Positions 721-36,060 of a DNA stretch of 64,000 nucleotides are shown here, one piece after another. The notes beneath the pieces are model-generated. The model was not told where the DNA came from, ran no database searches, and saw only the letters and a list, made by a program, of their open reading frames with translations. Source of the DNA: an uncultured virus (IMG/VR IMGVR_UViG_3300049491_001058) (lineage: Duplodnaviria; Heunggongvirae; Uroviricota; Caudoviricetes); the IMG/VR virus record IMGVR_UViG_3300049491_001058. The stretch is one strand, 5' to 3'. The position numbers and the translations under genes are program-made. How positions within the stretch are numbered: position 1 is the first letter of the stretch; every line of letters begins with the position of its first letter.

Positions 721-1155
721 ATGATCACAATCACAGTTAAAGACGGATTGAAGCCAGTTGCCGAGATCGACTTCCGCCCACATCAACGTCGCGCCTCTCC
801 GGTCGGCGCCATTCTCTTGGAAGCGCAGGAATTCATTAACCGCAAGTTCCGAGAGTTGGCTTCGCCACCAGAACCGCTGAAGGAGCTTTCTGTTGAAGAC
901 AAGGATGAGACTCACACTCCTGTTGGTTCCGTTAAGGTTGCCGAGACAGAGATAGTCACTCAGCCAGTCGCCCCTGCTCCTGCTCCTGCTCCTGTTGAAG
1001 AGTCGGGACCTGTTGGCGCCGGATCCGAAGAAAAGAAGGACCTCTCAGCAGAGGTAACCAAGGATGAGGAAGCCAAAGAGGAGACAAAGAAAATCGAGCC
1101 AGCGAAAACTCCTTCTACGGCAAAACAAGCAAAGGTCGAGCCTCCCGCAAAGTAA
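721..1155 (+). CDS. Hypothetical protein with Pro/Ala/Glu/Lys-rich disordered C-terminus
   Basis: 144-aa ORF flanked by a promoter-like sequence and a terminator. Confidence 0.75.
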   Translation: MITITVKDGLKPVAEIDFRPHQRRASPVGAILLEAQEFINRKFRELASPPEPLKELSVEDKDETHTPVGSVKVAETEIVTQPVAPAPAPAPVEESGPVGAGSEEKKDLSAEVTKDEEAKEETKKIEPAKTPSTAKQAKVEPPAK

Positions 1156-1178
1156 GTTAATTTCCGCAACCAACAATA

Positions 1179-1214
1179 GAAGGGTAGAGGGAGGAATCCT
1201 TCTACCCTTTTTTG
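1179..1214 (+). terminator. Intrinsic terminator
   Basis: agggtagaggga-ggaa-tccttctaccct hairpin followed by a T-run. Confidence 0.8.
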
Positions 1215-1252
1215 TTGCGCGGTTTGTGTTCTTCGAGCTATATTGCTCGACT

Positions 1253-2257: not shown

Positions 2258-2264
2258 TCCCAAA

Positions 2265-3842
2265 ATGAATAAGCTCCAGAAAATCGCCGACCTTTTAGCT
2301 ATGGTCGCCCAGTCTGCTCGCCTCCCCGGAGAGGTGGGGGAGATTGCGCATGCTGCAACCGGCCTATCCGCTAACGCCGCCTCAATAAAGAGCACGACTG
2401 CTGGAGAAAGAGTGATGGATAAAGTCGTAAACACGACATCAGGAGTATCGTCCGCTGTTGATACCGCAAACGAGGGGATGACCCGGATTAAACCACTCGC
2501 TACGCTGGCTGGAAAGTTTGCCCCTAGAGCCGCTGCTGGAATAGGAATGGTTGCTGAAAAAATTTCACCGCCAGTATGGGCAGCGTCGACAGCTTATCAG
2601 GCAGGTAAGGTGCTCAAGCATCCGGGAGCAGAGGTGAATGCTTTCATTGCTGCGACAAACAATCAGCCCTGGTGGAGACGAGCAATCGAAGGGATCAGCA
2701 ATCCTCCGGCAGCGATCGCCGCGCCCATGAAAATAATCAAAGAGATGGGTCACGCCACTGACGAACACAATCGAACTGCGCCTATGCGTTATCAAGACGG
2801 AACGACGGTCGAAGGCTTTGATGCAGCCAATCGCCATGCTCGTGAAGTCGAGATAGAGCAGATGAAGACCAACGGCACGTATCCGTTTGGAAAGAAAGCC
2901 GCCTTCCCCCAAGAGCTATTCATGGGCGAGGACAAAGCTCCGACAATGGTTGAACAAAAGACTCACCGCAGTGAGTTTGGTGGAGTGCCTCTTCATCAGG
3001 GACAAAAGAACTGGAACTTTGCTTTGGTTCAAGACGGCCAAGATAAAATCCTTCGCCTGAGAAATGGATCGAGAGCCATGTCGCTTCGTTTTGATGACGA
3101 CATGACTCGGGAAGACTTCGGTTCCGGCAAACCTATCTCAATGACCCGGCTGGGCGACGTGACCGACAAGGAGTTTCTGTCTGGAGACAGCGTGTTCTCT
3201 AAAGGAGTGTTCCAAATTCACAAATCCTCTCCAGGATCTATCCATGCCACAATGCAGGATGGAAAGAATGGACTGACCATGATGTTCGAAGAGGGTAAGG
3301 GCGGGAAGTGGACAATGGTTCCAAAGCCAAAAAACAAACTTAGTCAGGTGGCTGGAAAGTTTGTTCGACAGGTGAGTGAGGGGAAGACGGCGGAGCTTGT
3401 TGCTCACATAGCTGGACCATCTGGATCAGGTAAAACAACATTACTGAATAAAATAAAAGATCGTTTTCCTAACTACGCTACGGCCGATATTGATGAGTTT
3501 GATGAAAACGCAGAAAGGAGCCTTGGATACAATAGAATAAGTAAAGATGATTATTCGGATGAGATGTTGAGCAATCTTCATAATGAAAAACAAAGACTGC
3601 TTAATGAGTTTTTAGACAAGAATTCAGGGCAAAAAGTTATACTCGCTGGCCACCATACAGAGGCTGGACATGTGCTTGATGTTCCCTCTCAATACAAATT
3701 CATGCTTTCCACAAGCCCTTCAGTAAGCGCAATGAGAGCTTTCAATAGAGAGAAGGGTATGCACCCAGGGAACGAAAGGCGGTTGAGTGAAATTCCTGGC
3801 GATATACAGCAGGGTGTAGAGGTAAAAAAAAGAGCTACTTAG
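2265..3842 (+). CDS. Polyvalent protein, N-terminal part, ending in a P-loop kinase domain
   Basis: Walker A motif HIAGPSGSGKTT directly after KTA; the ORF ends just after an A8 run that would join it to the next ORF. Confidence 0.75.
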   Translation: MNKLQKIADLLAMVAQSARLPGEVGEIAHAATGLSANAASIKSTTAGERVMDKVVNTTSGVSSAVDTANEGMTRIKPLATLAGKFAPRAAAGIGMVAEKISPPVWAASTAYQAGKVLKHPGAEVNAFIAATNNQPWWRRAIEGISNPPAAIAAPMKIIKEMGHATDEHNRTAPMRYQDGTTVEGFDAANRHAREVEIEQMKTNGTYPFGKKAAFPQELFMGEDKAPTMVEQKTHRSEFGGVPLHQGQKNWNFALVQDGQDKILRLRNGSRAMSLRFDDDMTREDFGSGKPISMTRLGDVTDKEFLSGDSVFSKGVFQIHKSSPGSIHATMQDGKNGLTMMFEEGKGGKWTMVPKPKNKLSQVAGKFVRQVSEGKTAELVAHIAGPSGSGKTTLLNKIKDRFPNYATADIDEFDENAERSLGYNRISKDDYSDEMLSNLHNEKQRLLNEFLDKNSGQKVILAGHHTEAGHVLDVPSQYKFMLSTSPSVSAMRAFNREKGMHPGNERRLSEIPGDIQQGVEVKKRAT

Positions 3843-3876
3843 TCTCGGGTATCAAAAAATTAAAGCTAAAAGCGTT

Positions 3877-6800
3877 TTGCAACAACTGATTGACCTTAAT
3901 CAGGCAAATAAAGGAAAGATGGCAGAAAAGACAAAGGTCTATGCTGTCGATCTTGATGGAACCCTCGCGCACAGCTACGAAGGAGAGTTCGACAAAAATA
4001 AGATAGGCAAACCGGTTTCATTGATGCGCAAGCTTGTTCGTCAGTGGATGCGCAAGGGACATGAGGTTCGTATTTTTACAGCTCGAGCCGCCAATCCAAA
4101 GAATATTCCACCAATCAAGGAGTGGTTGAAGGAGCACGGAATGGAAGGCCTTGAAGTGACAAACAAAAAGACTCCCGATATCACGACTTTTTACGACGAT
4201 CGGGCCGTGAGAGTGGAGAGGGATACGGGTAAACTAGCGTCGCTGTCGGATCATTATAAAGCAGCGGAATTAACCTACTCTCCAGAGAATGGGTTGATTC
4301 TTGATGTGGACGACATGTATGGAAACCCCACAGCCAATAGGGCTTTAGATATCAAAAGATTTAACGATCTATCCCCAAATCAGTTTACGGTCGACTCTCA
4401 CGGAGGGTCTGGATACACCAACGGCCGTGGCGGGGCGGTTGAAAATATGTTTTCCGGCCATAAAGAGAACGAAAGTCTTCGATTTATAGAAAGACCGTCC
4501 GATCGGTTTGGTCCAGCTCGTAGCGACGTGATCTATTCCCCATCACGCCTTGCGCCGATGCAATTCAACCCAGAGGCTATAAAAAACAGGCCAGGGATTG
4601 ATCAGGTTTTATCCTTAGCCTGTAACAGACAAGGGACTTGCACTCCTCAAGTGTTTGAGAGGATGCTTGGACATCCTTTAAAGCGCGTATCGATGGTTCC
4701 TCCAGGGCATTACGGATCAGGAGGGTCATCGCTCTCTAATTACGTAACCGCAGCAATGCACTCGGTTTTTGGCATAAAGGATACGGCTCCGATACATAAT
4801 TATGTAAAAGAAAATGGCCAATGGGGAGATACCGGACTTTACAAAACAAAAATTGATAGACGGATCGATGTGGCGCATCAAGCCGTGTCCCCCGTCACTT
4901 CAGTAATCTTAAACCCATCTGGATCTTTCAATAACGTGGCTCACATGGTTAACTCCGTGTTACCTAAAAGAATGCAGATTCCAGACATGAAGCCTAGCGC
5001 AACTCCGCTTGTCGAGCCTAAAACGTCATTGCCTGCCCCAGACAGAGGGGCATCTTATCGTCAAATTATGAACGCCCCTAAATCGGCCTCTCTTCTTAAC
5101 TCCGCACCGGCAAGGTTTGTCGCAGTAGGTGCAGGCATTCTTGGCATGAGAGCCCTCAAAGAGCTTCCAGACCCATACGCAGATATCGCTACGAGTACAG
5201 CCTTTGCTGGCCTCGGTGGATGGACCGGATACGAGGTTGGAAAAATGGTTCAGCACTTTAGACACCTAAAGGAAATGAACGCTGCCGAGAAGGAACACCA
5301 AGAGAAACAAGGCAAATTGGCCTCGCTGCTGGATCATTATAAGGTGGGCGAAGATCGGGAGAAAAAGAAAAAAAATAAATCCACAGCAAGCATCTTTAGA
5401 GACACCTTGCCCTGGGTTGCCGGTGCGAGTCTTGCTGGCGCAGGAGCCTCCGAAGCTGTTCGTCGCGGAATCTTTACTCCCGAGCTTCAGGACGACATGT
5501 CTGACTTTACTCGCAAGCGGGAGCTTGACAAAATTTTCAAGCCATACGCTGCCCTCCCAAAAGACGAACAGGCCGTACAAGGCATTGTGGATTACGCAAT
5601 TCAAGGAAACAGATTGCTAAATAAGAGAATGCTTTGGGGAGCACTTTCTCCGACTGAATTAATTAAGTCTGTTCGTAGCGCCCCGTGGTTGGCTGAAAAG
5701 GATCGATGGACTCCAAACTCTCAGCAACACTACGACGCCTTTGAGTCTGGTGCTCTTCCTGGGGTTGTTCGGGTTCTTGGAGAAATCTCTCACGGATGGG
5801 ATAAGGCTGATGGAAGCGGCAGTCTGCCACCTAGCTCTAATTCGGTTCGAGAGGCTTTGCGTCATTCCGTAAATGATCTCTCGGGAATTAATTATGTAGA
5901 TACATCTGGAGGCCACCCAGCGAGCAAGACAGACAGGGAGTGGTTGTTTCCAGCCGTAGGGATGGCTTCCCAGCTTTCTCCTGAAAAGCAGATGCAGGTA
6001 ATGAGATCTCTTGGCCCAAAACTAAAGCAGGAGATTGTCTCCTCAGGTCCTGACGGAGAAAAGCAGTGGGGTAACCTGATCGATGGTCTTCAAAACGCTC
6101 GAGAAGTTGTTTACGGCGGATACGGGAAACTGACAAGCGCTTTGCAAAAAGCGAATGAGCTGTGGGGGACAACAAATACAGGCCTTGCGGCTACAGGCCT
6201 TACGGCGCTAGGTGGATATGGTGCCTGGAAGTTCTTAGACAGCCTTGCAAAAAAGAAAAAAGAGAGGGCTCGTCAAGAAGTGACAGAAAAGACAGCCAAG
6301 GCTCCATCATATCTTTCTATTTTGCGTGACAGGTTTTCTGAGGCACGCAAGGATGTCCATCCATCTCCGACAGAGGCTCAGAAATCTAAAGGCAATTACC
6401 CAATGGCCCACGTTTGGATGCAAGGGCTCGACATCACGATCGAGACCCCAAAGGGCGGAGTGCGCTCCGGCACAAACAAAGAGGGTAAATCCTGGAAGGT
6501 AGTTTTGAAAAATGATTATGGATACATCCGCAATCACAAAAGAAGCCAAGCTGACGGTGATCACGTAGATGTGTTTGTTGGCCCTTATCCCGCGTCAGAG
6601 ATCGTTTACGTTGTAGATCAAAACGTCGGAGGAAAGTTCGACGAGCACAAATGTATGTGCGGCTTCTTCACTGAGAAAGAGGCCAAGGATGCATATCTTG
6701 CAAACTTCGATGAAAACTGGAAAGGATTCAGGTCCATCACGGCCCTCACTATGCGCCAGTTCAAAAAGTGGCTTGAGGATGGAGACACATCGAGTCCGCT

Positions 6801-7443
6801 GGCTGGCCAGAAATATTCCGACTTCCTGAAGACGGCGAACGAGATGGATCCTCATCCAATCCTTTCGTCCATTACGCATCATTATTTAAATAATAACCCA
6901 GCTATCGCCACGGCCGTCGGGGCAATTAAGGGCGGACTTGTAGGGGCGGCTATCCATTCGTTGCGAGCCACCAAGAAAGAGATCCTTGACGAAAGAAAGA
7001 AAATCCCGACGTGGGGAGATGATATTGGTAACGGCTTACTGATCGGCTCCGGCACGGGGCTGGCTACATGGGCCATCCCTCATGCTATGGAGGCTTATTA
7101 CGGATCGAAGCAGGGGCACATTATGGATACAGTTTTTGCTCCAATAAATGCTCCTGTCTCAGTTGCTCCTTTTCTTGGTGCCGGATATGGAGCCATAGCT
7201 GGCGGAGCGAAAGGTCTATTTAATAAGGTGAAGAAGAAGCTCACTGGAGAAACGGAAGAACGTTATGAGCTTGGAGACAGTATCATCGACGGAGCTGTGA
7301 ATGGAAGCCAACAAGCTTTGGTGGGATCCGTCAGTCTCAGTCAGGATCAAGCAGCTAGAAGAGCAATGAAAATGGCTCCGCCGGCTCCGCGAAAAATAAA
7401 TAATCGCCAACCATTGATTGGAAACAAAACTCACCTACGATAA
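3877..7443 (+). CDS. Polyvalent protein, C-terminal part: HAD phosphatase, possible caspase-like domain, membrane helices, InPase (inorganic pyrophosphatase-like) domain
   Basis: HAD motifs YAVDLDGTLA / IFTAR / FYDDRA; InPase signature PTEAQK-GNY...IETPKG...YGYI...DGDHVDVFVGP...VVDQ...FDEHK. Confidence 0.8.
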   Translation: MQQLIDLNQANKGKMAEKTKVYAVDLDGTLAHSYEGEFDKNKIGKPVSLMRKLVRQWMRKGHEVRIFTARAANPKNIPPIKEWLKEHGMEGLEVTNKKTPDITTFYDDRAVRVERDTGKLASLSDHYKAAELTYSPENGLILDVDDMYGNPTANRALDIKRFNDLSPNQFTVDSHGGSGYTNGRGGAVENMFSGHKENESLRFIERPSDRFGPARSDVIYSPSRLAPMQFNPEAIKNRPGIDQVLSLACNRQGTCTPQVFERMLGHPLKRVSMVPPGHYGSGGSSLSNYVTAAMHSVFGIKDTAPIHNYVKENGQWGDTGLYKTKIDRRIDVAHQAVSPVTSVILNPSGSFNNVAHMVNSVLPKRMQIPDMKPSATPLVEPKTSLPAPDRGASYRQIMNAPKSASLLNSAPARFVAVGAGILGMRALKELPDPYADIATSTAFAGLGGWTGYEVGKMVQHFRHLKEMNAAEKEHQEKQGKLASLLDHYKVGEDREKKKKNKSTASIFRDTLPWVAGASLAGAGASEAVRRGIFTPELQDDMSDFTRKRELDKIFKPYAALPKDEQAVQGIVDYAIQGNRLLNKRMLWGALSPTELIKSVRSAPWLAEKDRWTPNSQQHYDAFESGALPGVVRVLGEISHGWDKADGSGSLPPSSNSVREALRHSVNDLSGINYVDTSGGHPASKTDREWLFPAVGMASQLSPEKQMQVMRSLGPKLKQEIVSSGPDGEKQWGNLIDGLQNAREVVYGGYGKLTSALQKANELWGTTNTGLAATGLTALGGYGAWKFLDSLAKKKKERARQEVTEKTAKAPSYLSILRDRFSEARKDVHPSPTEAQKSKGNYPMAHVWMQGLDITIETPKGGVRSGTNKEGKSWKVVLKNDYGYIRNHKRSQADGDHVDVFVGPYPASEIVYVVDQNVGGKFDEHKCMCGFFTEKEAKDAYLANFDENWKGFRSITALTMRQFKKWLEDGDTSSPLAGQKYSDFLKTANEMDPHPILSSITHHYLNNNPAIATAVGAIKGGLVGAAIHSLRATKKEILDERKKIPTWGDDIGNGLLIGSGTGLATWAIPHAMEAYYGSKQGHIMDTVFAPINAPVSVAPFLGAGYGAIAGGAKGLFNKVKKKLTGETEERYELGDSIIDGAVNGSQQALVGSVSLSQDQAARRAMKMAPPAPRKINNRQPLIGNKTHLR

Positions 7444-22797: not shown

Positions 22798-25700
22798 ATG
22801 CCTGATAAAAAAGTCGAGACAACCCTAGCCGATTTGGCGGTCAACCTTGTTTTTGATCGGACCCCTGGTCTTGCAGATCATTACCTTGGTTTTGAAATTA
22901 TCCCTGGTTCGCAGAACGAGGAAAAAACTCGTGCAGCCGGACTACTTGGCTTTCGGGTCGGGACGGAAGAGCTTTATATCCCCATCCTTTTCCTGAACGG
23001 AAAAGTAAAAGGATCGGAAGTTATCTACTTGAGTGAAGCTGACGTCTTTACCAGCAACTCCAAACAGTGGATCGACTACCTCACCACAAAGGATACCGGC
23101 ACAATGGGAGCAGGAGCCACTCCGAAAACTCCATTGCAACAGCCATCTTCACAAGGGCTTGCTGTATTCAGTCGTAACCCTGGTAATATTGGTAAGATGG
23201 CGGTTTTAGTGGAAGATGCCGATCTCGACCTTCCTAGCGCAGAGGCTTTTCAGAAAGCTCTTGGCCGAGCTAACGCTGCTGGAATGACTCCTTCTCCAGA
23301 GACATTTAAAGCTATCCAATCTGAATACGATACAAAGAAAAAACAAAGGGACGGCAAAGCAAAAACGGCAGCCTTCTTTGAAGGAGCGGCCAGCGACTTC
23401 TGGAGTAAGGTTGCGTCGCCAGAAGGGGACTGGACCGACATCTCTCTTGGCGAAAACTTCACTTTGCCGAACGTCCTGAGGTCCTTGGGTAAGGAGGCTT
23501 ACCTGAAATTTGCCTCGATGCTGGAGCAGAACCCAGAGGTGCTGTCCAAGGTGGCTCAATATTTTGATGTCGAGAAAGATATCTTTTTTGACTGGCCTCA
23601 GGAAAAAACGGCGTCACTGGAGGATCCTGAAATGGAGGCCTTTTTCAAAAGCGCTCAGGCGGCTGCAGACGAATGCAAGCTGCTGATGATCATGCCGGAG
23701 GAGATCGAGGAGTTCTCCAAGCAGGCCCTCGATCATTCAGTCCAAGAAAACTTAAATAGACTGATCGCAAATGGTCCTGATTATCTGGACGCTGCAACCA
23801 CAAGCCCTATTATCTTAGCTGGCGCAGATGTGGGCCGTAACTTTTCTAAAACAGATCTAGCTAAAATAATAGCGCAGAGGGAGCTCCCACAGCTTTTTGG
23901 AAACGGAATGAAGGATGAGGCGGTTCATAGAATGGTCCCTGTTCTTGGAGGCAGACTCGCTGGTCTTAGTGGCTCACCTCTTGCTGGTGCTTACCTCGCA
24001 AAGAGAGCCGCCGTCGACTCCCTCACTCCAGAGCAAAAAGAGCAATGTTTCACTGATGGATATCTCGTCCTAGATAAGAGAGCTGAAAAGGAAAAGACCC
24101 TCGTCTTGAAAGAGGATTACCGTAATCGATTCAGTTCTCCGTCCGAAAGCGGCTTCTATGAAGTTCTTTGTTCGTCCGGTGATATCGAGAAGGTTTTCCT
24201 TGCCCATCAATCATTCACTATCGAACATCCCCATAAGAGGTTGTCGGGCGATCTCTTGCTTGATCCCGAAAGCGGCGTCTTTACCCTGCCAGTCATTGGT
24301 GAGCAGGTATTTGTTCGCTCTAAGCTTTCGACTGATGAGGCCGTATGGAAAGAGAAGGCTGGAAAAATGCCTTCCGTTTCAAGCATGGAGCCAAACAAAA
24401 GCTACATGCTGATTTCCTCAAAGATGGATACTTCGATTCCGTTCCGGGTAAAAGGCAAAACAAAGACCGACAGCGGCCTGTCCTTTACTTGCGAAACCTC
24501 TTGGGACTTGCGTTATCGCTGCATGTCTCCTTCGGAATCTCTCTATCCCGGATCGTGCTCTTCTGGCATGACTGGAGTTACGACGGTTAAAGTGGTTGAC
24601 CGTGAAGACGAATCTAGCGTTGCTCAGGTTGGCGATATTACTTATGTCCCATCATCGTGGAAGGTGATCGAGGTTTATGACAACTCCACCAGTCTTCAAT
24701 ACGGTCATTCCACTTACCCAACAGATAATGAGGCGGAAAAGAAGGAGCGAAAGGAAAGAGAGGAAATGGCTAAGGTCTATTTCCGGATTCTCCCTGGAAA
24801 TTCAAAGACTCTGACCTCTGTCCTTGCAAACAAAAACATCCATGAACTCTCTGTCCACAAAACGGCGTCGGATTATTCTGTCCGTCTCGACAAGGAAGTT
24901 GTCTGTCACGGAAATAAAGTTGCGGCGCTACAGACTTTGGTGTCTGGGATGGGTATTGGTCTTGACGATGCCATTGCTATTATTGATGAGTCGGTTTCGC
25001 CCACTGGAACAAAGCAATGGGTGAAGGAGGCTTATGGTCCTGAGGTCAAAGCAAAAGACATTCTTCCTATGGAAGGTTTTCTTCCAGGGGCACAAGACTT
25101 TTTGAATACATACTCTTCTAATCGGGCAGGCAGGGCCGTAGCAATGGGTCATGCTGCCGGAAAAAGCGACGAGGAGATTAGTAGCCGTCTCCGTTATCCA
25201 ATATTTTCAAGCCTAGGTGATACATTAGGAGGCGCGGCCCTTGGAGGCTTGGCGGGAGCAGCGATTGGCGGAGGCGCCTCCGTTCTTGCCGGACCTCAAA
25301 ACCCTTATTCAATAGACCAGGGTGCGACTATTGGCGGGCTTGGAGGCGTGGGTGTCGGAGCTCTTCTTGGGTCAATTCACAACTTTATTCAGAGAAGAAA
25401 GGAGATGAGAGAAATCTCGAAAGAGTTTGATGATACCTCTCCTGGCGACAGAAATAAAACGAAGAGCCCCGAGGATCCAAGAATCAGTGACTATAATCCA
25501 TACATAGGTCCCTATAACAAAGGAGAGAGAGATGCTTATCGTTTTATAAATGGAGAGCAAAAAGAAAAACCGAGCTTTGGGGGAGCCGGGCATACTCAGG
25601 TATTGAGTGGCCTTGCGGACGCTGTCGTGCCAGGAGCCGGGGTTCCTATTTTTGCGGCAGCCGGAATAGCTCAAGGAATCGGATCCTCTGGTAAAAAAGA

Positions 25701-26304
25701 AGAGGCAAAAAAAGCCTCGGAGTCTCCGAGTGACGCTTTTGAACGAATTCTCAATAAATCCGCAAGAGGTCCATCGCTCAATGGCGAAGGCCTTCTTTAC
25801 GGAGGCATGGCCTTTCCGGACAATGACCAGGAGATTGGGCAAACATCTCAGGGCGTAACTCAGCTTGGTCCAAGAGCTCAGAGAGAGCAGGTCCCCATCA
25901 ACAGCATGAGGGACGACACTCAGGACTGGAGAAACATGGATGAAGCGAATTGGGATAAGATTCAGCAGCGCGATATGGATTTCCTAATGCGGGCCGCAGA
26001 TTCCGGCTCGAAGCCGGTGTTTGAGTCGTCCATCATCAATCTCTTGCTGAAAACCAATCGAACTTCAGACCAAGTAAGTGAATGGCTCCCTGATCTGGTC
26101 AGCAGCCTTGACTCAAAGTGTCGTCTCCTCCTTCTGTTCTATTGGCATAGCTCAGACTTTGCCGAGAACTATGGGAAAGACGAGATGGCTGAATTTGAGG
26201 ATGTTCTTCTGAACTCAATCAAGGTTGATGGCCAGCTCATTCTGTTCCTGAAACAGAAAGCTAGCGAATCTTCTTCATCCAAAATTGACGCTTTCGCAGG
26301 CTAA
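22798..26304 (+). CDS. Large putative head protein with many K-x-A motifs
   Basis: 1168 aa; KMA, KTA, KVA, KFA, KSA, KQA, KRA, KEA, KKA motifs; internal glycine-zipper segment. Confidence 0.65.
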   Translation: MPDKKVETTLADLAVNLVFDRTPGLADHYLGFEIIPGSQNEEKTRAAGLLGFRVGTEELYIPILFLNGKVKGSEVIYLSEADVFTSNSKQWIDYLTTKDTGTMGAGATPKTPLQQPSSQGLAVFSRNPGNIGKMAVLVEDADLDLPSAEAFQKALGRANAAGMTPSPETFKAIQSEYDTKKKQRDGKAKTAAFFEGAASDFWSKVASPEGDWTDISLGENFTLPNVLRSLGKEAYLKFASMLEQNPEVLSKVAQYFDVEKDIFFDWPQEKTASLEDPEMEAFFKSAQAAADECKLLMIMPEEIEEFSKQALDHSVQENLNRLIANGPDYLDAATTSPIILAGADVGRNFSKTDLAKIIAQRELPQLFGNGMKDEAVHRMVPVLGGRLAGLSGSPLAGAYLAKRAAVDSLTPEQKEQCFTDGYLVLDKRAEKEKTLVLKEDYRNRFSSPSESGFYEVLCSSGDIEKVFLAHQSFTIEHPHKRLSGDLLLDPESGVFTLPVIGEQVFVRSKLSTDEAVWKEKAGKMPSVSSMEPNKSYMLISSKMDTSIPFRVKGKTKTDSGLSFTCETSWDLRYRCMSPSESLYPGSCSSGMTGVTTVKVVDREDESSVAQVGDITYVPSSWKVIEVYDNSTSLQYGHSTYPTDNEAEKKERKEREEMAKVYFRILPGNSKTLTSVLANKNIHELSVHKTASDYSVRLDKEVVCHGNKVAALQTLVSGMGIGLDDAIAIIDESVSPTGTKQWVKEAYGPEVKAKDILPMEGFLPGAQDFLNTYSSNRAGRAVAMGHAAGKSDEEISSRLRYPIFSSLGDTLGGAALGGLAGAAIGGGASVLAGPQNPYSIDQGATIGGLGGVGVGALLGSIHNFIQRRKEMREISKEFDDTSPGDRNKTKSPEDPRISDYNPYIGPYNKGERDAYRFINGEQKEKPSFGGAGHTQVLSGLADAVVPGAGVPIFAAAGIAQGIGSSGKKEEAKKASESPSDAFERILNKSARGPSLNGEGLLYGGMAFPDNDQEIGQTSQGVTQLGPRAQREQVPINSMRDDTQDWRNMDEANWDKIQQRDMDFLMRAADSGSKPVFESSIINLLLKTNRTSDQVSEWLPDLVSSLDSKCRLLLLFYWHSSDFAENYGKDEMAEFEDVLLNSIKVDGQLILFLKQKASESSSSKIDAFAG

Positions 26305-27320
26305 TGAAGCGCTTGCCGTCAAAAATCCTGGATGGGCTCAAGAGCCGGCAGGCGTCTATGGTGACGCCTGCCAGTTTTGTTGCGAGGAGTCTCAGCGAAG
26401 GCCTTGACTATGAGCCAGGGTGGAGAGCGTGGTTAGCCTCCTTCTACCATCAAGAGTTTTTTACAGCAGAGCAGAACGGAGGAGGTTTCTTATTCCCTCC
26501 CGGAGAGAAGGATGATCACGTTATCCAGTATTTCACATTTAAGACCTATGGCTCATGTAGGGAGGCAGATATTACTGAGGCAATCAGATGGAGCGAAAGA
26601 AACCATCTAAGGTCTGAAGAGAATATGGCAAAGATCAGAGCGATGGTCGTGGCTGGAGCGACAGATGACTATATCGCCGGGAAGTTTTTCACGAAACCAG
26701 AGAACGTGGCAACCTACGTGAAGCTCTTTTTTGATGTTCGTTCATGTCTTGATTCGCCTATATGGATGGACACATTCATCAAACCCGAGAAGACAGAATT
26801 AACAACGACACCGTTTGAGCTGAGAGAATTGATTTGGCTGGCGATTGGTTATCAAAAAGGATTGGCGGCACTGGAGGATTTTATCTCTGGAAAATCAGAC
26901 TACCTATCAGACAAGGAGATTGCGGCACTTTTTGAGACAACCAAGTCATCAATCACTTCTCAAGGGATGATGCATGCCATCGGCAACACCATTCTAAATA
27001 TCAATGGTCGCCCAAGCGAGCTAGATAGATCGCTAGCCATGAGACAGAATGATTCACTCAAGGCTGCGCCTCCTACTCTTTCTGGAGACATCAGTAAGAC
27101 AAAGGCCTGGATGGATGAAGCTATAGCCAACGATATTTTCTCGGAAGAGGTTGCGAGTGGAATTAAGCTTGGCGAAAAGACCTTTCTTGAGGCCTCAGCA
27201 ACTAAATCGCCCCCCGCTCTTTTGACTGAGACGAAGAACAGTAACACTATTCAGCGGTCATCTGTTGTTGGGCGCCTTACTTTTCTAAGGCAAAAAGATT
27301 GGCTTGTTTCTCCATTATAG
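26304..27320 (+). CDS. Hypothetical protein
   Basis: 338-aa ORF, TAATG overlap with the upstream stop. Confidence 0.75.
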   Translation: MKRLPSKILDGLKSRQASMVTPASFVARSLSEGLDYEPGWRAWLASFYHQEFFTAEQNGGGFLFPPGEKDDHVIQYFTFKTYGSCREADITEAIRWSERNHLRSEENMAKIRAMVVAGATDDYIAGKFFTKPENVATYVKLFFDVRSCLDSPIWMDTFIKPEKTELTTTPFELRELIWLAIGYQKGLAALEDFISGKSDYLSDKEIAALFETTKSSITSQGMMHAIGNTILNINGRPSELDRSLAMRQNDSLKAAPPTLSGDISKTKAWMDEAIANDIFSEEVASGIKLGEKTFLEASATKSPPALLTETKNSNTIQRSSVVGRLTFLRQKDWLVSPL

Positions 27321-27338
27321 AACGATACTTTAAACCAC

Positions 27339-28730
27339 ATGAACGCTGCCGAAAGCAAAATCAAAAAAGCCCTCAATCTCGCGGTCGATTACCGAAACAA
27401 GGGCTCCTCCCCGACGGAAGCGGTCATAAAGGCGGCATCTGATCAGTCCCTAAGCCCTGACATGGCGGAAAGGCTCGTGGAGTCGTTCAATATTGCCCTG
27501 ACAAATGCCACAATCAAAAACGCTTCCGATAAAACGGCAAGCTTCCTTCTTGCTGAAAAAGGGGAAGTAATGAAGGGAGTTTTTGACATCTATCGCCCGA
27601 GCGAAGGGAAGATGGCCTCAAGCTCTGAGCCGGATTCATTTTCTTGTACCCATGACGACATCGACTTGTCTTGGATGTATGGAGGTCGAAAGAGCGTTAG
27701 CTTCGATAACCCTGTTGAATTGATTCGCAAAGTAGCAGGTGTAACTCAATTAGCCGAGCATGAAATCAGCAACTACTCTCAGGACGCTCTTGCTGCATCC
27801 ATGAAAACCGAAAGGAGCTTCCTTGACGTTTGTGAGTCAGCCACGCTCTCTGATTTTAGAGGGAAGTTTGCGTCGTTCGAAATGAGAGCTCTGAGCGAGT
27901 ACGGTGAGGCCGTTCGTCCAGTCATTGACAACATTTATGAAGCAACCGGCTTAGAGGGTATTGGCGAAGCTCGGTTTGAGGGGACGGCAAAAATTGCATC
28001 AGAGTATTTTCCTCCGTGTTCGTTTTACTCAAAGTTTGAAAAACTCATGGCAGACACGACCGAGTTGTTTCAAAAGCAAGACGCTTACGACCAAAAGCTC
28101 GCAGCGCTTAATGAAGAAATCGGTGAGACTGAAACTCTTTTGCGGGAAGCTCTTTCGGATTATTCGTTTTCACCGACCATCGGGAAAAGCGCAGCAGCTA
28201 TGCTTGGGACAGCCCCATTTAGCTTCCTGCAAAAGGAGGGCGCTGACGAAAAAGAAAAAAAGCCTAGCGGCGGTGGAGGCGGTGGCTTTCTAAAGACCAT
28301 GGGTGGTGCCATGGGTGGAACCCCTTTTGATCGCAGCAAGTCATTGGTGCCTTCTTCTTGGGAAGGTACTGGAAAAAGCATTTCCGATGAATACCAACAG
28401 GCCCACACGAACGCTATTGAAAGTTACTACAAGGGGCCAAAGGACGAAGTTGACATGGAGATGTCGAATGTTCGTCGTCAAGCTATCCTGAGTGAGTTGA
28501 TGGCGAACGATGATATCATTTCGAAGATTGACCCCAAGCATATTGAACAGAGCTACAGTACCTTATTGTCGATGGCTCCAGATTTAACTTTGCAACCAGG
28601 GGTTGTTCAGAGCTGGCTGCGTCAATCTTCAGCGGCTCAATCTGTTGATCCTTATACTGCAAAACAACTTCTCGATCTCCAGCAAGGTGTTCTGAAAAAC
28701 AAAGCTATCGCCAAGGGGGAAAAAGTGTAA
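27339..28730 (+). CDS. Putative head/core protein with K-x-A motifs
   Basis: 463 aa, helical; KTA, KMA, KVA, KFA, KIA, KLA, KSA motifs. Confidence 0.6.
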   Translation: MNAAESKIKKALNLAVDYRNKGSSPTEAVIKAASDQSLSPDMAERLVESFNIALTNATIKNASDKTASFLLAEKGEVMKGVFDIYRPSEGKMASSSEPDSFSCTHDDIDLSWMYGGRKSVSFDNPVELIRKVAGVTQLAEHEISNYSQDALAASMKTERSFLDVCESATLSDFRGKFASFEMRALSEYGEAVRPVIDNIYEATGLEGIGEARFEGTAKIASEYFPPCSFYSKFEKLMADTTELFQKQDAYDQKLAALNEEIGETETLLREALSDYSFSPTIGKSAAAMLGTAPFSFLQKEGADEKEKKPSGGGGGGFLKTMGGAMGGTPFDRSKSLVPSSWEGTGKSISDEYQQAHTNAIESYYKGPKDEVDMEMSNVRRQAILSELMANDDIISKIDPKHIEQSYSTLLSMAPDLTLQPGVVQSWLRQSSAAQSVDPYTAKQLLDLQQGVLKNKAIAKGEKV

Positions 28731-29392
28731 TGAGCGAACCAGACAATTCATTTCCGTACGTCAATAGCCTTGTGTCCGCTTTGGCCTCTGGCGCAATCGG
28801 CGCAGGAGCCGCAAGAGCCATGACCCATCGAAAAGAAGATGAGTCAGATCAGCAATACGACAGACGAGTTTCTCTAAACACTTCCACTGGAGCTCTCGGT
28901 GGTGGCGCTCTGGGAGCAAGCTTACCTCTTCTATATCGGTTCGTCACTCCTGAGAAAAAGGAGCTGATCGATCGCTTCATGGATCATCCAATAGATACAG
29001 CACTCGGCACAGGGTTTGACAAAACGGTTGAGACGCTTGGGGCTGGCGGACTGATCGTTGGCGGCGCTGGCGCTGTTGCGGGAAAAGCCATTGGAGCTGC
29101 AGCAAATTCGTCTTCGGATAAAGCGATAGCAAAAACAGACGCACACAGGGCCTCAGCAGAGGCAAGCCAGATTCACGCCAATGCTCACGGGACTCCTGCT
29201 GATATAACAAAAGCGAATGCTCTTTTTAATGAATCGGTAAAAGCTCAACAAGCGGCCATAGAGCACTCCAATAACTTGAAGACCAAATGGAGATACGGAG
29301 CACATGGGGGTAAGCAGTATCATGGCACAGCAGGAGCCGTCCTCGGGACCGCATTGGGGATAGTTGGAGAAAAATACATGGATAAGCTTTAA
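28730..29392 (+). CDS. Glycine-zipper membrane protein
   Basis: Several GxxxG hydrophobic helices. Confidence 0.65.
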   Translation: MSEPDNSFPYVNSLVSALASGAIGAGAARAMTHRKEDESDQQYDRRVSLNTSTGALGGGALGASLPLLYRFVTPEKKELIDRFMDHPIDTALGTGFDKTVETLGAGGLIVGGAGAVAGKAIGAAANSSSDKAIAKTDAHRASAEASQIHANAHGTPADITKANALFNESVKAQQAAIEHSNNLKTKWRYGAHGGKQYHGTAGAVLGTALGIVGEKYMDKL

Positions 29393-29395
29393 TTT

Positions 29396-31876: not shown

Positions 31877-31921
31877 AAAAAGATTGTCTTTCCACCCACC
31901 CGCACTTAATTACAATTACCC

Positions 31922-35067: not shown

Positions 35068-36060
35068 ATGAAAGTTGATCCATCCACGCTGAATAAGCAA
35101 TTCATGTCCAAGATCGCTTCTGGCGACAAGCAAGGAGCTATGGACGCCGCCACCGAGTTTACTCGTCTGACTCTTCGTGAAGAAGGCCTTCTCCGTAAGG
35201 TGCTTCCTCCAAAGCCGATCAGTTACTCGGACCTTGACAAGCAGATCGACAGCGATCACCCCGTCAAGATCATGGACAAGGAAGTGAGCCAGCCTCTTTC
35301 CGTGTCCGTGCCGTTTGGCTCGCTCCCTGCGAACCAATACATCAAGGGCGCTCGTTACCGTGTTGATTTTGCTCGTCTCGTGAGCAAAAACTACACCAAG
35401 GACACAGCCGAGCTGAATGCCTATGACTATGATATCCGCGAAGTCTTCAAGGACAACGCCATCAAGGATCACATGACGGGCGAAGATGTTCCCTTCTTCC
35501 AGCTCGTCAACAGCCTCATTCAGTCCGATCCCGACAACGGCATCGCTGTAGGTAACGTTGCGTCCGCCATGACCGGCAAGGTGCAGTTCCATGACTATAC
35601 TGACTCGACCAAGAACCCTCGTGGCTACACGGGCTTCAGTCGTGACAGTGTTGTTGATGCGTTCACTATCATGACCAAGGGCTTCGGCAGCGGCGCCAAC
35701 TCCACTCCTATTCGTCTCCAGACGGATCTCTGTGTGATGAATGCCAATACTGGCCTCGAATTTGTCAAACTGCTGCCCACCGAAATTGGTGAGCGCATTG
35801 CTGACAAGCTAGCGACAGATGGTTTGGTTGAGGACACATTCTTTGGTCGTCGTTTCTTGTTTACCATCAAGGACGACATCATTGAGGACGGCGCCATGTA
35901 TATGTTCGCCAAGCCCCAGTTCCTTGGCGTACTGCTGGAACTGGAACAACCCGTTCTTTTCCTCGAGAACCGAGCATACATGATGGAGTTCTTCATCTAC
36001 AGCATGCTTGGCTCATCGATCGGAAATGCGTTCGGTCTTGCCAAGGCAAAGTACTTCTAA
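35068..36060 (+). CDS. Major capsid protein (HK97 fold, putative)
   Basis: 330 aa; FTRLTLREEGLLRKVLPP N-terminal block; strong codon bias; position after protease/scaffold/decoration genes; followed by a terminator. Confidence 0.8.
   Translation: MKVDPSTLNKQFMSKIASGDKQGAMDAATEFTRLTLREEGLLRKVLPPKPISYSDLDKQIDSDHPVKIMDKEVSQPLSVSVPFGSLPANQYIKGARYRVDFARLVSKNYTKDTAELNAYDYDIREVFKDNAIKDHMTGEDVPFFQLVNSLIQSDPDNGIAVGNVASAMTGKVQFHDYTDSTKNPRGYTGFSRDSVVDAFTIMTKGFGSGANSTPIRLQTDLCVMNANTGLEFVKLLPTEIGERIADKLATDGLVEDTFFGRRFLFTIKDDIIEDGAMYMFAKPQFLGVLLELEQPVLFLENRAYMMEFFIYSMLGSSIGNAFGLAKAKYF

What the first reader, a model, noticed from the sequence alone, without database searches (positions are those of the whole stretch)
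2265..7443. Polyvalent cargo polyprotein: kinase, HAD phosphatase, caspase-like, membrane and InPase modules, each delimited by K-x-A
Seen: module order is Ala-rich region / KKA / beta domain / KTA / P-loop kinase (3393-) / KMA / HAD phosphatase (3919-4239) / KLA...KAA / unknown domain / KSA / TM pair / KLA / helical-TM domain / KTA / InPase (6298-6828) / KTA / glycine zippers. Known: InPase domains are typical of phage and plasmid polyvalent proteins thought to be delivered with the DNA, and a P-loop kinase followed by a HAD phosphatase mirrors T4 polynucleotide kinase-phosphatase. Inference: this is a packaged toolkit released as separate enzymes at infection. The pyrophosphatase could support a co-injected RNAP, and the kinase/phosphatase pair could heal RNA ends.
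Basis: partly seen in the sequence, partly recalled or inferred. Interest (0 to 1): 0.78.

Follow-up and report, generated by a model that had tools for sequence, protein, structure and literature searches.

The report
Phage cargo polyprotein with K-x-A joints
This is a large modular phage gene, broken by a one-base frame change, whose enzyme modules are joined by a short K-x-A peptide signal that also marks the phage's head proteins, which suggests the head-maturation protease cuts a packaged precursor into separate tools.

Summary
The modules are real, but 2265-7443 is not one open frame. ORF1 (2250-3842) and ORF2 (3877/3919-7443) differ by +1, and the switch lies at an A8 run (3824-3831) inside the P-loop kinase. 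The kinase's conserved last ~25 residues are encoded in the +1 frame.

Bare K-x-A is not enriched (15 observed, 13.2 expected), and two copies lie inside the InPase fold. The boundary copies are genuine. In library homologues K-x-A sits at the kinase N-edge in 31 of 80, at its C-edge in 18 of 38, and after the "beta domain" in 26 of 33, against backgrounds of 7-11%. Different cassettes occupy the same K-x-A-flanked slot: Zn-ribbon, kinase or long inserts.

K-x-A-[ASEG] is also concentrated in the head-gene block of this phage (34 observed, 9.5 expected), of a complete 194-kb relative, and of Salmonella phage Arash. It also lies near all three capsid-protein N-termini.

Best reading: this is a head-packaged polyvalent cargo precursor cut by the clade's maturation protease. 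That step is inferred, and no protease was identified.

The "beta domain" has a LigD 3'-phosphoesterase-like fold. The caspase-like and transmembrane labels remain untested or weak.

The parts
2265..2288 (+). Probable start (ATG 2265) and an 8-residue N-terminal leader, MNKLQKIA, that ends in K-I-A.
   Evidence: P0013, the collection's own call of this protein, starts here. Translation. Comparable short K-x-A leaders occur in homologues.
2274..2759 (+). N-terminal helical, Ala-rich module (PPVWAAS..NPPAAI). It is a mobile module of unknown function.
   Evidence: It is stand-alone in P0023, P0088, P0141 and P0157, and internal (after the HAD) in P0003, P0004, P0005 and P0007. The AF2 model is helical, with pLDDT mostly below 60 and 73-88 only at aa 110-150.
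2892..2900 (+). K-K-A joint (FGKKAAF) in a disordered linker.
   Evidence: The model has pLDDT below 50 at aa 214-225.
2982..3377 (+). The 'beta domain': an eight-strand barrel plus a C-terminal helix, with a LigD 3'-phosphoesterase-like fold. The LigD catalytic His/His/Asp/Arg residues are not evident.
3384..3392 (+). K-T-A joint (EGKTAEL) between the beta domain and the kinase.
   Evidence: K-x-A follows the beta domain in 26 of 33 homologues (background 0.107, p 1e-19). K lies at -4 from the first kinase residue in 21 of 80.
3396..3906 (+). P-loop kinase module of the AAA_18 class. It is read in frame 0 to 3830 and in frame +1 from 3832.
   Evidence: With the +1 continuation supplied, 73 of 117 homologous matches extend at least 9 aa past the shift. 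The +1 tail scores 32.0 against 19.0 +/- 1.7 for shuffled tails, and the -1 tail does not score above its shuffles.
3824..3831 (+). A8 run where the reading frame changes (GAGGT AAAAAAAA GAGC). Continuity needs a +1 ribosomal slip or an mRNA carrying A7 or A10.
   Evidence: An independently built contig from the probable source run, at 13x depth, carries the same A8.
3916..3924 (+). K-M-A joint before the HAD. Its ATG (3919) is a possible internal start, preceded by AAAGGAAAG.
   Evidence: P0002 has KTAE at the same place.
3919..4239 (+). Small capless HAD phosphatase module.
   Evidence: DLDGT, T54, K84 and D93-D94 are invariant in 7 sequences. phrog_1238 E 1.6e-12 and phrog_415 (polynucleotide kinase) E 1.6e-6. 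HAD_PNKP scores 18.5 bits, below its 27.6 cut-off.
4228..4259 (+). Linker repeat copy 1, encoding GKLASLSDHYK. It is followed by K-A-A at 4258-4266.
   Evidence: A 32-nt direct repeat, 81% identical, whose differences are synonymous except one Ser/Leu codon. K/R-[LI]-A is aligned here in P0002, P0003, P0004 and P0020.
4267..5079 (+). Conserved motifs are SHG, LACN(R/K)xG, ERxLGHPLKRV and GxWxDxGxY.
   Evidence: Residues 41-202 of the segment 4240-5088 (nt 4360-4845) align to P0008 aa 465-610 at 32% identity, E 3e-15. No match in Pfam, NCBIfam or PDB sequences. Fold not tested.
5080..5088 (+). K-S-A joint (APKSASL).
   Evidence: No homologue covers this region.
5089..5313 (+). Pair of glycine-zipper-like segments (FVAVGAGILGM and AFAGLGGWTGY).
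   Evidence: Kyte-Doolittle maximum 1.29. Only weak Pfam hints.
5311..5342 (+). Linker repeat copy 2, encoding GKLASLLDHYK, with K-L-A at 5314-5322.
5343..6288 (+). Unknown, mostly polar region that ends in another Gly-zipper. It contains a second, in-frame A8 run at 5368-5375.
   Evidence: No family or PDB sequence match. A-runs.
6289..6297 (+). K-T-A joint before the InPase module.
   Evidence: The K is at least 90% conserved in the 12-sequence alignment. K-x-[AG] is aligned here in 10 of 11 rows (9 of the 9 InPase-bearing homologues).
6298..6828 (+). InPase (type I inorganic pyrophosphatase-like) module. The Pfam envelope is about 6373-6777.
   Evidence: PF18823, 168.8 bits. Acidic residues are invariant.
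6829..6837 (+). K-T-A joint after the InPase module.
   Evidence: K-[TQIHK]-A is aligned here in 9 of 9 InPase-bearing homologues. It is absent from most unrelated InPase loci.
6838..7443 (+). Conserved C-terminal glycine-zipper module (GAGYGAIAGGAKG and others), including the stop codon.
   Evidence: Many invariant Gly residues across 7 sequences. Weak Gly-zipper Pfam hits. Kyte-Doolittle maximum 1.5.
22798..33859 (+). Context: a head-module block of six ORFs that is rich in K-x-A-[ASEG].
   Evidence: 34 observed against 9.5 expected, with 0 of 1000 shuffles reaching the observed count. The 24-32 kb bin has 25 against 6.9. Synteny with Arash gp218-gp225 and with G001.
35068..36060 (+). Context: the major capsid protein, with K-I-A-S and K-Q-G near its N-terminus.
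   Evidence: 30% identity over 99% of its length to the Arash MCP, E 2e-23. E 3e-47 to the G001 MCP. N-termini compared.

Best explanation
The locus is one ancestral gene of about 1730 codons for a modular head-cargo ('polyvalent') precursor of a divergent freshwater myophage that carries its own multisubunit RNA polymerase.

Module order: short leader / helical module / LigD-PE-like barrel / P-loop kinase / HAD phosphatase / unknown H..C domain / Gly-zippers / unknown region / InPase / Gly-zipper tail.

The modules are joined by K-x-A-[A/S/E/G] peptides. These are most likely the recognition sites of the clade's head-maturation protease. On this reading the precursor is taken into the prohead and cut there into separate enzymes and membrane-active pieces, which leave the head with the DNA and, probably, the virion RNAP (inferred).

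Because cleavage sites flank every module, cassettes can be swapped between them. This swapping is shown by comparison of homologues.

In this genome the frame is broken by +1 at an A8 run inside the kinase. The full precursor can therefore be made only by slippage (mRNA with A7 or A10, or a ribosomal +1 slip). Otherwise the products are a truncated ORF1 and perhaps an ORF2 started at ATG 3919.

The enzymes probably act on phosphate ends of RNA or on nucleotides early in infection (inferred).
For: **One ancestral gene.** Homologues P0002-P0007 and L019 carry the beta domain, HAD, InPase and Gly-zipper tail in one ORF. The kinase's conserved C-terminus (..ELxxxGYxK..) is encoded in frame +1 directly after the A8 run.

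**The joints are real.**
- K-x-A lies at the kinase N-edge in 31 of 80 N-extended homologues against 6.7% background (p 2e-16), with K at -4 in 21 of 80.
- It lies at the kinase C-edge in 18 of 38 (p 4e-9) and after the beta domain in 26 of 33 (p 1e-19).
- It is aligned after the InPase in 9 of 9 InPase-bearing homologues.
- Stand-alone kinases begin where a cut would leave them, and 13 of 64 have a short leader ending in K-x-A.
- The slot between the beta domain and the HAD holds a Zn-ribbon, a kinase or long inserts, each flanked by K-x-A.
- The GKLASLxDHYK linker is duplicated, and all but one of the nucleotide differences are synonymous.

**The motif belongs to the head module.**
- Window 22798-33859: 34 observed against 9.5 expected (0 of 1000 shuffles reach it).
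- Unbiased bins: window 24-32 kb, 25 against 6.9. G001 40-60 kb, 42 against 15.8. Arash 140-150 kb, 32 against 7.8, with the other 17 populated Arash bins all at 9 or fewer.
- K-x-[AG] lies at the same aligned place (aa 21-28) in the capsid proteins of all three phages.
- The motif-rich Arash proteins are virion proteins by mass spectrometry (PMC10585845, Table 2 passages).

**Packaging context.** Kinase homologues are fused to Portal_Mu, Phage_Mu_F, ART-PolyVal and RNAP beta/beta'. InPase is described as specific to phage-type polyvalent proteins that are likely packaged (PMC5512222, passages). RNAP subunits are among the most abundant particle proteins of Arash.
Against: - No protease gene was identified. 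Pfam and PHROGs gave nothing in the window, and S77 and S78 gave nothing in G001.
- No proteomic or N-terminal data exist for this phage.
- Within the polyprotein itself the K-x-A-[ASEG] count is not above chance (7 against 4.1; 115 of 1000 shuffles reach it).
- Its sites mostly have Gly at -1, whereas head-block sites favour a hydrophobic residue at -2.
- Two K-x-A copies lie inside the InPase fold.
- The helical N-module has no K-x-A at its C-edge in 0 of 9 homologues.
- Arash mass spectrometry reports 80-100% coverage of the motif-rich proteins, so they are not simply degraded away.
- The block groupings were chosen after seeing the hits. The binned scans are the unbiased versions.
- The frame break means the single precursor may not be made in this genome.
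- AGA, the 0-frame codon after the run, is the commonest Arg codon here (13.3 per 1000), so a rare-codon pause cannot be claimed.
Confidence: 0.5

Rival explanations
1. The frame change is a plain inactivating mutation, or a phase-variable state, in a dispensable cargo gene. The phage then makes a truncated ORF1 whose kinase lacks its invariant GY tail, and at most a separate ORF2 from ATG 3919. No full precursor exists in this population.
For: - A8 is a mutable homopolymer.
- The same A8 is seen in a second assembly at 13x depth.
- The ATG at 3919 follows an SD-like AAGGA.
- No relative with the same junction was found to show that the shift site is conserved.
- AGA is not rare here.
Against: - The 25 codons after the shift are still open and still resemble homologues (32.0 against 19.0 +/- 1.7 for shuffles). 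Any break is therefore recent, or is read through.
- ORF2 alone would lack the N-terminal leader and barrel that start nearly every family member.
- The spacing between the SD-like sequence and the ATG is only 3 nt.
Confidence: 0.3
2. K-x-A is a passive linker or module cap that travels with the cassettes and is never cut. The polyprotein would work as one chain, like polyvalent proteins that are delivered whole.
For: - Some polyvalent proteins are transferred unprocessed, for example N4 vRNAP, ArdC and TraC1 (PMC5512222, passages).
- The motif lies at a fixed distance from the first kinase strand, as a structural cap would.
- The count within the polyprotein is not above chance.
Against: - A passive cap does not explain the 3- to 4-fold excess of the same tetrapeptide in unrelated head-module proteins of three phages, nor its position near the capsid-protein N-termini.
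- It also does not explain the short N-terminal leaders that end in K-x-A.
Confidence: 0.17
3. The precursor cuts itself. The unknown domain (4267-5079), with conserved His-Gly and Ala-Cys motifs, would be a caspase-like (clan CD) or other cysteine peptidase that cleaves at K-x-A, with Lys at P1.
For: - SHG and LACN are conserved in the one homologue, P0008.
- The His-then-Cys order fits clan CD (recalled).
- Other family members carry peptidase modules: Peptidase_C39-like in 3 of 38, and HExxH in P0008 and P0009.
Against: - The motif is used in G001, in Arash and in most homologues that lack this domain.
- No peptidase profile matches at E up to 1.
- The conserved C-x5-C and His residues could equally bind metal.
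- The fold is untested.
Confidence: 0.06
4. The A8 run is an assembly or sequencing error for A7, and the gene is a plain single ORF.
For: Homopolymers are error-prone. Restoring A7 gives a perfect kinase continuation.
Against: An independently built contig of the probable source run shows the identical sequence with 0 differences over 5194 bases at about 13x word depth. This is the same sample, so it is not independent data. The two runs of another sample do not cover 3468-4163.
Confidence: 0.1

Closest known systems
Phage-type polyvalent proteins (Iyer, Burroughs, Anand, de Souza, Aravind 2017, PMC5512222; passages read)
   Same: Many unrelated enzymatic domains in one phage polypeptide. The InPase domain is described as specific to phage-type polyvalent proteins. 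The gene sits in a virion-gene neighbourhood. The paper also proposes cassette-like recombination and PPi clearance for early transcription.
   Different: That work proposes an embedded zincin (MPTase) as the processing enzyme, and none is found here. The passages I read did not mention a short inter-module K-x-A signal shared with head proteins, a LigD-PE-like N-terminal barrel, or repeated Gly-zipper spacers.
Head ejection and internal proteins of giant phages (SPN3US, phiKZ) cut by the prohead protease (PMC10052503, passages read)
   Same: A myophage with a virion multisubunit RNAP. Many head proteins carry several copies of a three-residue protease motif. N-terminal propeptides of 20 to 254 residues are removed. 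The proteins are ejected with the DNA.
   Different: The motif there ends in Glu (A/S/G-x-E; recalled, because the letters were cut from the passage I saw). Here it is K-x-A-[ASEG]. There the substrates are separate proteins rather than a chain of enzymes. The protease (gp245/gp175 type) is known there and unidentified here.
T4 internal proteins with a capsid-targeting leader cut by gp21 (recalled; touched on in PMC10052503)
   Same: A short N-terminal leader that ends in the protease motif, followed by a cargo protein that is injected. Leaders such as MLLTGLEKLA|G, and MNKLQKIA|D of the window, look analogous.
   Different: The T4 motif is L/I-x-E (recalled). In T4 each gene carries a single cargo.
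T4 polynucleotide kinase-phosphatase (Pnkp)
   Same: A P-loop kinase followed by a DxDxT HAD phosphatase. phrog_415 'polynucleotide kinase' matches the HAD part (E 1.6e-6).
   Different: Here the two parts are separable cassettes with a K-M-A joint and a frame break between them. In homologues they occur independently. HAD_PNKP scores below its cut-off. The kinase is of the AAA_18 type. Activity is unknown.
LigD 3'-phosphoesterase domain (PDB 3p4h, 3n9b)
   Different: No sequence-profile similarity. The His/His/Asp/Arg metal site seen in P0009 is not evident in the family motifs (QxNWxY and QxHxSxPxxI[YH]xTxQDGK). It may be non-catalytic.

Membership tests
Phage-type polyvalent protein | Several unrelated effector or enzyme domains in one phage polypeptide. 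| tested here: met
   Kinase, HAD, InPase and a LigD-PE-like barrel, plus unknown modules. Caveat: a +1 frame break lies between ORF1 and ORF2.
Phage-type polyvalent protein | Carries a domain diagnostic of the class (InPase, PF18823). | tested here: met
   E 2e-48, 164 bits against a cut-off of 26.8.
Phage-type polyvalent protein | Lies among virion or head genes. | tested here: met
   Same strand as, and upstream of, the RNAP genes, the head block, the MCP (35068-36060) and the sheath.
Phage-type polyvalent protein | Embedded MPTase-type processing peptidase (frequent in the class, not obligatory). | tested here: not met
   No peptidase profile and no HExxH in the window protein. HExxH is present in relatives P0008 and P0009.
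Phage-type polyvalent protein | Packaged and delivered with the DNA. | not testable with these tools
   Needs virion proteomics.
T4 Pnkp-type kinase-phosphatase | The HAD belongs to the PNKP phosphatase family. | tested here: inconclusive
   PF25109 scores 18.5 bits against a cut-off of 27.6, E 0.002. phrog_415 E 1.6e-6. No PDB sequence hit.
T4 Pnkp-type kinase-phosphatase | Kinase and phosphatase form a fixed two-domain unit. | tested here: not met
   The kinase is absent from P0002-P0007 and L019, which have the HAD. The kinase occurs alone or with other partners in most of the 117 matches.
T4 Pnkp-type kinase-phosphatase | 5'-kinase and 3'-phosphatase activity on polynucleotides. | not testable with these tools
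   Needs an enzyme assay.
Caspase-like (clan CD) peptidase | A His-Gly ... Ala-Cys dyad, each after a hydrophobic strand. | tested here: inconclusive
   TVDSHG and VLSLAC are present and are conserved in P0008. Only one homologue is known.
Caspase-like (clan CD) peptidase | Recognised by a family profile. | tested here: not met
   No Pfam or NCBIfam hit at E up to 1. No PDB sequence hit at E up to 5.
Caspase-like (clan CD) peptidase | Caspase/hemoglobinase fold. | not tested
   The second structure job was not accepted.
LigD 3'-phosphoesterase | PE barrel fold. | tested here: met
LigD 3'-phosphoesterase | Sequence family PF13298 and its catalytic His/His/Asp/Arg residues. | tested here: not met
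   No PF13298 hit. hhalign probability 0.6. The catalytic residues are not evident by eye. No residue-level structural alignment was available.
Substrates of a prohead maturation protease | A short motif shared by several head-module proteins and the MCP N-terminal region. | tested here: met
Substrates of a prohead maturation protease | A prohead protease gene is present. | tested here: inconclusive
   None was recognised in the 64-kb window or in G001. The proteins of this clade are very divergent.
Substrates of a prohead maturation protease | Cleavage demonstrated. | not testable with these tools
   Needs mass spectrometry or N-terminal sequencing.
Programmed frameshift or transcriptional slippage site | A slippery run in the zone where both frames are open, with a conserved domain continuing in the new frame. 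| tested here: met
Programmed frameshift or transcriptional slippage site | The shift site is conserved in relatives, or mRNA or reads are heterogeneous. | not testable with these tools
   No relative has this junction. Only contigs were available, not raw reads or RNA.

The most novel reading that the evidence does not exclude
A clade of RNAP-carrying myophages (the window's phage, the 194-kb G001, the Arash-like phages and many metagenomic relatives) uses a head-maturation protease with a previously undescribed K-x-A specificity. It has built a 'plug-and-play' cargo polyprotein on that specificity. Enzyme cassettes are inserted between cleavage sites, taken into the prohead through one N-terminal leader and barrel, and diced into individual injected enzymes. 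The cassettes include kinase, HAD, InPase, 2H, LigD-PE, NUDIX, helicases, ART and even RNAP subunits. Slippage at an A8 run would set how much full-length precursor is made.
Probability: 0.35. Interest if true: 0.82.

Novelty: new variant of a known kind. Interest (0 to 1): 0.66.

Why it matters
If K-x-A is the cleavage code, the mature injected proteome of a large and almost unannotated group of phages can be read straight from sequence. That group includes a cultivable Salmonella phage with existing virion mass-spectrometry data.

It would also show a DNA phage using the polyprotein strategy of RNA viruses to pack a changeable set of early-acting enzymes. The cleavage sites would double as the seams along which evolution swaps cassettes.

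The cargo list points to early counter-defence at RNA ends or nucleotide signals, delivered before any phage gene is expressed. It includes kinase, HAD, pyrophosphatase, 2H, LigD-PE, NUDIX and Acb1-like modules.

Tried and rejected
**Searches that found nothing useful**
- No DNA relative among 50,697 phage records. tblastn of ORF2 found only the InPase part (at most 19% coverage) in 474 records.
- IMG/VR and metagenome scans with ORF1, with seg5-seg7 and with seg5+P0008, and a degenerate DNA pattern for ERxLGHPLKRV, found no relatives.
- The metagenome scan with A1 gave only two short contigs.
- Word search for the beta domain in longer proteins found only P0002. Word search for seg5 found none.
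- No whole genome is held for the window. Earlier scan notes: nothing.

**Leads not followed further**
- Atlas lead for seg5 (DUF5899 of giant viruses) had low recognition and is treated as a lead only. The Atlas gave nothing usable for 26304-27317.
- The BFVD fold search was uninformative.
- In the VIA and Foldseek lists, only LigD PE stood out for the barrel. The helical N-module gave only generic helix matches.

**Tests not possible**
- No RNA holder is listed for this stretch. The runs are contigs only, so slippage could not be measured. Two runs of another sample hold 100%-identical pieces but do not cover the A8 site.

**Literature**
- A search for 'K-X-A' or 'KXA' with 'phage' and 'protease' returned 2 irrelevant papers. 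The Arash paper contains no occurrence of cleav-, protease or proteoly-.

**Ideas rejected**
- A rare-AGA pause at the shift site, because AGA is the commonest Arg codon here.
- Signal-peptidase A-x-A sites, because Lys at -3 breaks the -3/-1 rule (recalled).
- K-x-A as a general feature of the InPase domain. Among 16 other IMG/VR InPase loci, only 1 has it upstream and 2 (an identical pair) have it downstream.

Full report
**What is in the DNA**

Under table 11 the stretch 2265-7443 is two ORFs. The first runs 2250 (TTG; ATG at 2265) to 3842, 530 aa. The second runs 3877 (TTG; ATG at 3919) to 7443. They lie in frames 0 and +1. Both frames are open only over 3826-3839, and this zone holds an A8 run at 3824-3831, in the context GAGGT-A8-GAGC.

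Only two A8 runs occur in the 64-kb window. The other one (5368) lies in frame in the same gene. A contig built independently from the probable source run, at about 13x depth, matches all 5194 bases with no difference, A8 included. Two runs from another sample hold identical pieces but do not cover the site.

**The two ORFs are one ancestral gene, and the break lies inside a domain**

An exhaustive profile search with ORF1 found 192 representative proteins at E up to 0.001. Three parts of ORF1 behave as independent modules: aa 9-170, aa 228-385 and aa 378-528.

Stand-alone kinases of 170-200 aa (for example P0014, 63% identical) continue after '..SEIPxDI..' with '..V(K/N)EL(R/L)G(F/L)GY(K)..L..L'. 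In the window that segment (KKELLSLGYQKIKAKSVLQQLIDL) is encoded in frame +1, directly after the A8 run.

With the +1 continuation supplied, 73 of 117 kinase matches extend at least 9 residues beyond the shift. The +1 tail scores 32.0 against 12 homologues, compared with 19.0 +/- 1.7 for shuffled tails (maximum 24.6). The -1 tail scores 16.1 against 16.8.

Homologues P0002-P0007 and L019 carry the beta domain, HAD, InPase and Gly-zipper tail in a single ORF.

In this DNA it requires a +1 slip or an mRNA with A7 or A10. Four observations bear on how that might happen:
- AGA, the 0-frame codon after the run, is the commonest Arg codon here, so a hungry-codon argument fails.
- An SD-like GAGG lies just 5' of the run.
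- The 25 post-shift codons are intact, so either the break is recent or it is read through.
- The ATG at 3919 is the 'x' of a K-M-A joint. It follows AAGGA with only 3 nt of spacing, so it is a possible but poor internal start.

**The modules**

| Module | Evidence |
|---|---|
| InPase | Certain: PF18823, E 2e-48. |
| HAD | Minimal capless form with all four motifs invariant. Related to heptose and PNK-type phosphatases by PHROGs, but below Pfam's HAD_PNKP cut-off. |
| P-loop domain | AAA_18 kinase class, with Walker A, a DxD after strand 2 and two lid arginines invariant. Substrate unknown. |
| N-terminal helical module | Poorly modelled. |
| 4267-5079 | One homologous stretch, in P0008 (32% identity, E 3e-15), with conserved SHG, LACN, ERxLGHPLKRV and GxWxDxGxY. 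No profile or PDB sequence match. The 'caspase-like' label is unproven. |
| 'TM' parts | Weakly hydrophobic glycine-zipper-like stretches. |
| 5343-6288 | Matches nothing. |

**K-x-A**

The bare tripeptide is not enriched: 15 observed against 13.2 expected. Two copies lie inside the InPase fold. The boundary copies are another matter.
- K-x-A-[SE]-L occurs 5 times against 0.13 expected.
- The linker GKLASL[S/L]DHYK occurs twice, 1083 nt apart. Its two copies are 81% identical at the DNA level, and all differences but one (a Ser/Leu codon) are synonymous.

Across library homologues, which are clustered at 50% identity:

| Position | Homologues with K-x-A | Background | p |
|---|---|---|---|
| 12-aa window at the kinase N-edge | 31 of 80 | 6.7% | 2e-16 |
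| Kinase C-edge | 18 of 38 | 10% | 4e-9 |
| After the barrel | 26 of 33 | 10.7% | 1e-19 |
| Within 12 aa before the barrel | 1 of 29 | 7.8% | 0.9 (not enriched) |
| After the helical module | 0 of 9 | 8.3% | 1.0 (not enriched) |

At the kinase N-edge, K sits at -4 from the first kinase residue in 21 of 80.

After the InPase, K-[TQIHK]-A is aligned in 9 of 9 InPase-bearing homologues. The K before the InPase is at least 90% conserved.

A logo of 91 boundary sites gives [L/M]-[E/K/T]-K-[T/Q]-A-[A/S/E/G].

Thirteen of 64 near-stand-alone kinases have a short N-terminal leader that ends in K-x-A, for example MLLTGLEKLAG|VLAH. The window protein itself starts MNKLQKIAD.

The slot between the barrel and the HAD holds a Zn-ribbon (P0003, P0004, L019), the kinase (window) or long inserts (P0002, P0007), each flanked by K-x-A. 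The helical module is N-terminal in the window but internal in P0003, P0004, P0005 and P0007.

The motif is lineage-specific. Among 17 IMG/VR InPase loci, only L010 has it on both sides of the InPase (LAKTAAE / InPase / LAKQAE). Of the other 16, one has it upstream and an identical pair has it downstream.

**The motif belongs to the head module of the clade**

This is the result that changes the reading.

In the window, K-x-A-[ASEG] is concentrated in six ORFs at 22798-33859. There are 34 copies against 9.5 expected from composition-preserving shuffles, and 0 of 1000 shuffles reach the observed count. Individual ORFs include 27339-28730 with 9 sites in 463 aa and 31922-33859 with 11 in 645 aa. 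The RNAP ORFs (4 against 6.7) and the 51-64 kb ORFs (1 against 4.2) are not enriched. Those groups were chosen after seeing the hits. In unbiased 8-kb bins only the 24-32 kb bin stands out, with 25 against 6.9.

Window 35068-36060 is the major capsid protein. It is 30% identical over 99% of its length to the MCP of Salmonella phage Arash (E 2e-23). It matches the MCP of G001 at E 3e-47. G001 is the complete 194,576-bp IMG/VR genome that holds L010.

The head blocks of the three phages are syntenic.
- In G001, 10-kb bins give 20 against 6.5 and 22 against 9.3 at 40-60 kb, which is the stretch between the RNAP genes and the MCP. The bin at 100-110 kb, which holds its polyprotein and neighbours, gives 16 against 8.0. 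The other bins are near expectation.
- In Arash, a cultured phage, a single bin (140-150 kb, directly upstream of the MCP) has 32 against 7.8. The other 17 populated bins all have 9 or fewer. Its gp220, gp223 and gp225 carry 9, 7 and 6 sites in 307, 255 and 200 aa.

All three capsid proteins have K-x-[AG] at the same aligned place, about aa 21-28.

The Arash paper (PMC10585845; passages and Table 2 rows read) lists these proteins, and the RNAP beta and beta' subunits, among particle proteins by mass spectrometry. It says nothing about cleavage.

**Mechanism proposed**

By analogy with T4 and with phiKZ/SPN3US heads, I read K-x-A-[ASEG] as the cleavage motif of this clade's head-maturation protease. 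In those phages a prohead protease cuts many head and ejection proteins at a three-residue motif and removes N-terminal propeptides. A virion RNAP is among the internal proteins (PMC10052503, passages). I read the polyprotein as a head-packaged precursor that is diced into its modules.

What is shown:
- module boundaries;
- motif conservation;
- cassette exchange;
- enrichment of the motif in the head module.

What is inferred:
- cleavage itself;
- which bond is cut (after Ala, as in herpesvirus assemblin V/L-x-A|S sites, which I recall from memory, or after Lys);
- packaging and ejection;
- every enzymatic role.

No protease was recognised.

**What the cargo may do**

In 38 long homologues scanned with Pfam, these partner families appeared:

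| Partner family | Homologues |
|---|---|
| InPase | 11 |
| 2H phosphoesterases (LigT, 2H-SAK, Acb1-like) | 10 |
| SNF2 helicases | 5 |
| NUDIX | 3 |
| Peptidase_C39-like | 3 |
| LigD_N | 2 |
| PI3/PI4-kinase-like | 2 |
| His_Phos_1 | 1 |
| ART-PolyVal | 1 |
| Portal_Mu | 1 |
| Phage_Mu_F | 1 |
| RNAP beta/beta' (P0027) | 1 |

HAD relatives are also fused to RNAP plus an intein, to a CCA-type nucleotidyltransferase plus HD, and to LigD_N.

The fusions to portal, MuF and RNAP support a head location and a link to the phage RNAP. The enzyme set fits RNA-end healing. It fits equally well the destruction of nucleotide immune signals. I cannot separate the two.

PPi removal for early transcription is the function proposed for InPase by Iyer et al. 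(PMC5512222, passages).

**Novelty**

Polyvalent proteins, InPase and protease-processed head cargo are all known. In my limited searches I did not find any of the following:
- a K-x-A inter-module code shared with head proteins;
- cassette exchange at those sites;
- the PE-like N-terminal barrel;
- a slippery-run break inside such a gene.

I rate it a new variant of a known kind.

**Limits**
- No proteomics are available for this phage.
- No protease was identified.
- Only one structure job ran. The second was not accepted, so the caspase-like claim and the folds of two regions are untested.
- Run data were contigs only.

Noticed in passing
window 11475-15725: One 1416-aa ORF joins the RNAP beta C-terminal part (Rpb2_6) to the beta' N-terminal part (Rpb1_1/2), with a LAGLIDADG_2 endonuclease domain (aa 606-791) between them. 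This is either a beta-beta' fusion interrupted by an intein or homing element, or a read-through of three genes. G001 has a similar 1452-aa beta-beta' ORF without a LAGLIDADG hit.
   Followed up: partly
window 29396-31876: An 826-aa head-module protein contains an intein (Hint plus LAGLIDADG_3, aa ~169-400). Its exteins match Arash gp222 (491 aa) and G001 g49268-50710 (480 aa).
   Followed up: partly
window 1064-2257 and L019 798-1778: The upstream Ala/Pro-rich, Gly-zipper protein is conserved in synteny. If it starts at the internal Met-Met (about nt 1253), it begins MMAQLLSSPTFWNKLA|E. The L019 orthologue begins MTRFTLPSSLWAKTA|Q. Both would be a leader of about 15 aa that ends in K-x-A.
   Followed up: partly
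window 16161-16925: A PAS_3 domain protein (E 8e-16) lies among the phage RNAP subunit genes.
   Followed up: no
window 53701-54456: Weak match to an RNA polymerase sigma factor PHROG (E 5e-7). Arash packages a sigma-like protein, gp10, according to its paper.
   Followed up: no
window 41425-44529: A 1034-aa ORF whose C-terminal part matches a tail sheath PHROG (E 2e-9). The phage is therefore a myovirus.
   Followed up: no
proteins P0046, P0063, P0068: Some stand-alone kinases carry a different N-terminal leader that ends ..PLP(Q/K)(T/S)K directly before the first kinase strand. This may be another lineage's processing signal.
   Followed up: no
window 5368-5375: A second A8 run lies in frame (E-K-K-K-K-N-K) in the same gene. 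Slippage there would truncate the product.
   Followed up: no
L010 / G001 104741-107566 and 108679-109695: The G001 polyprotein has the order 2H phosphoesterase / InPase / small domains / Gly-zipper / HAD, each separated by L-x-K-[TQ]-A. A separate MazG-like pyrophosphatase gene lies next to it.
   Followed up: partly
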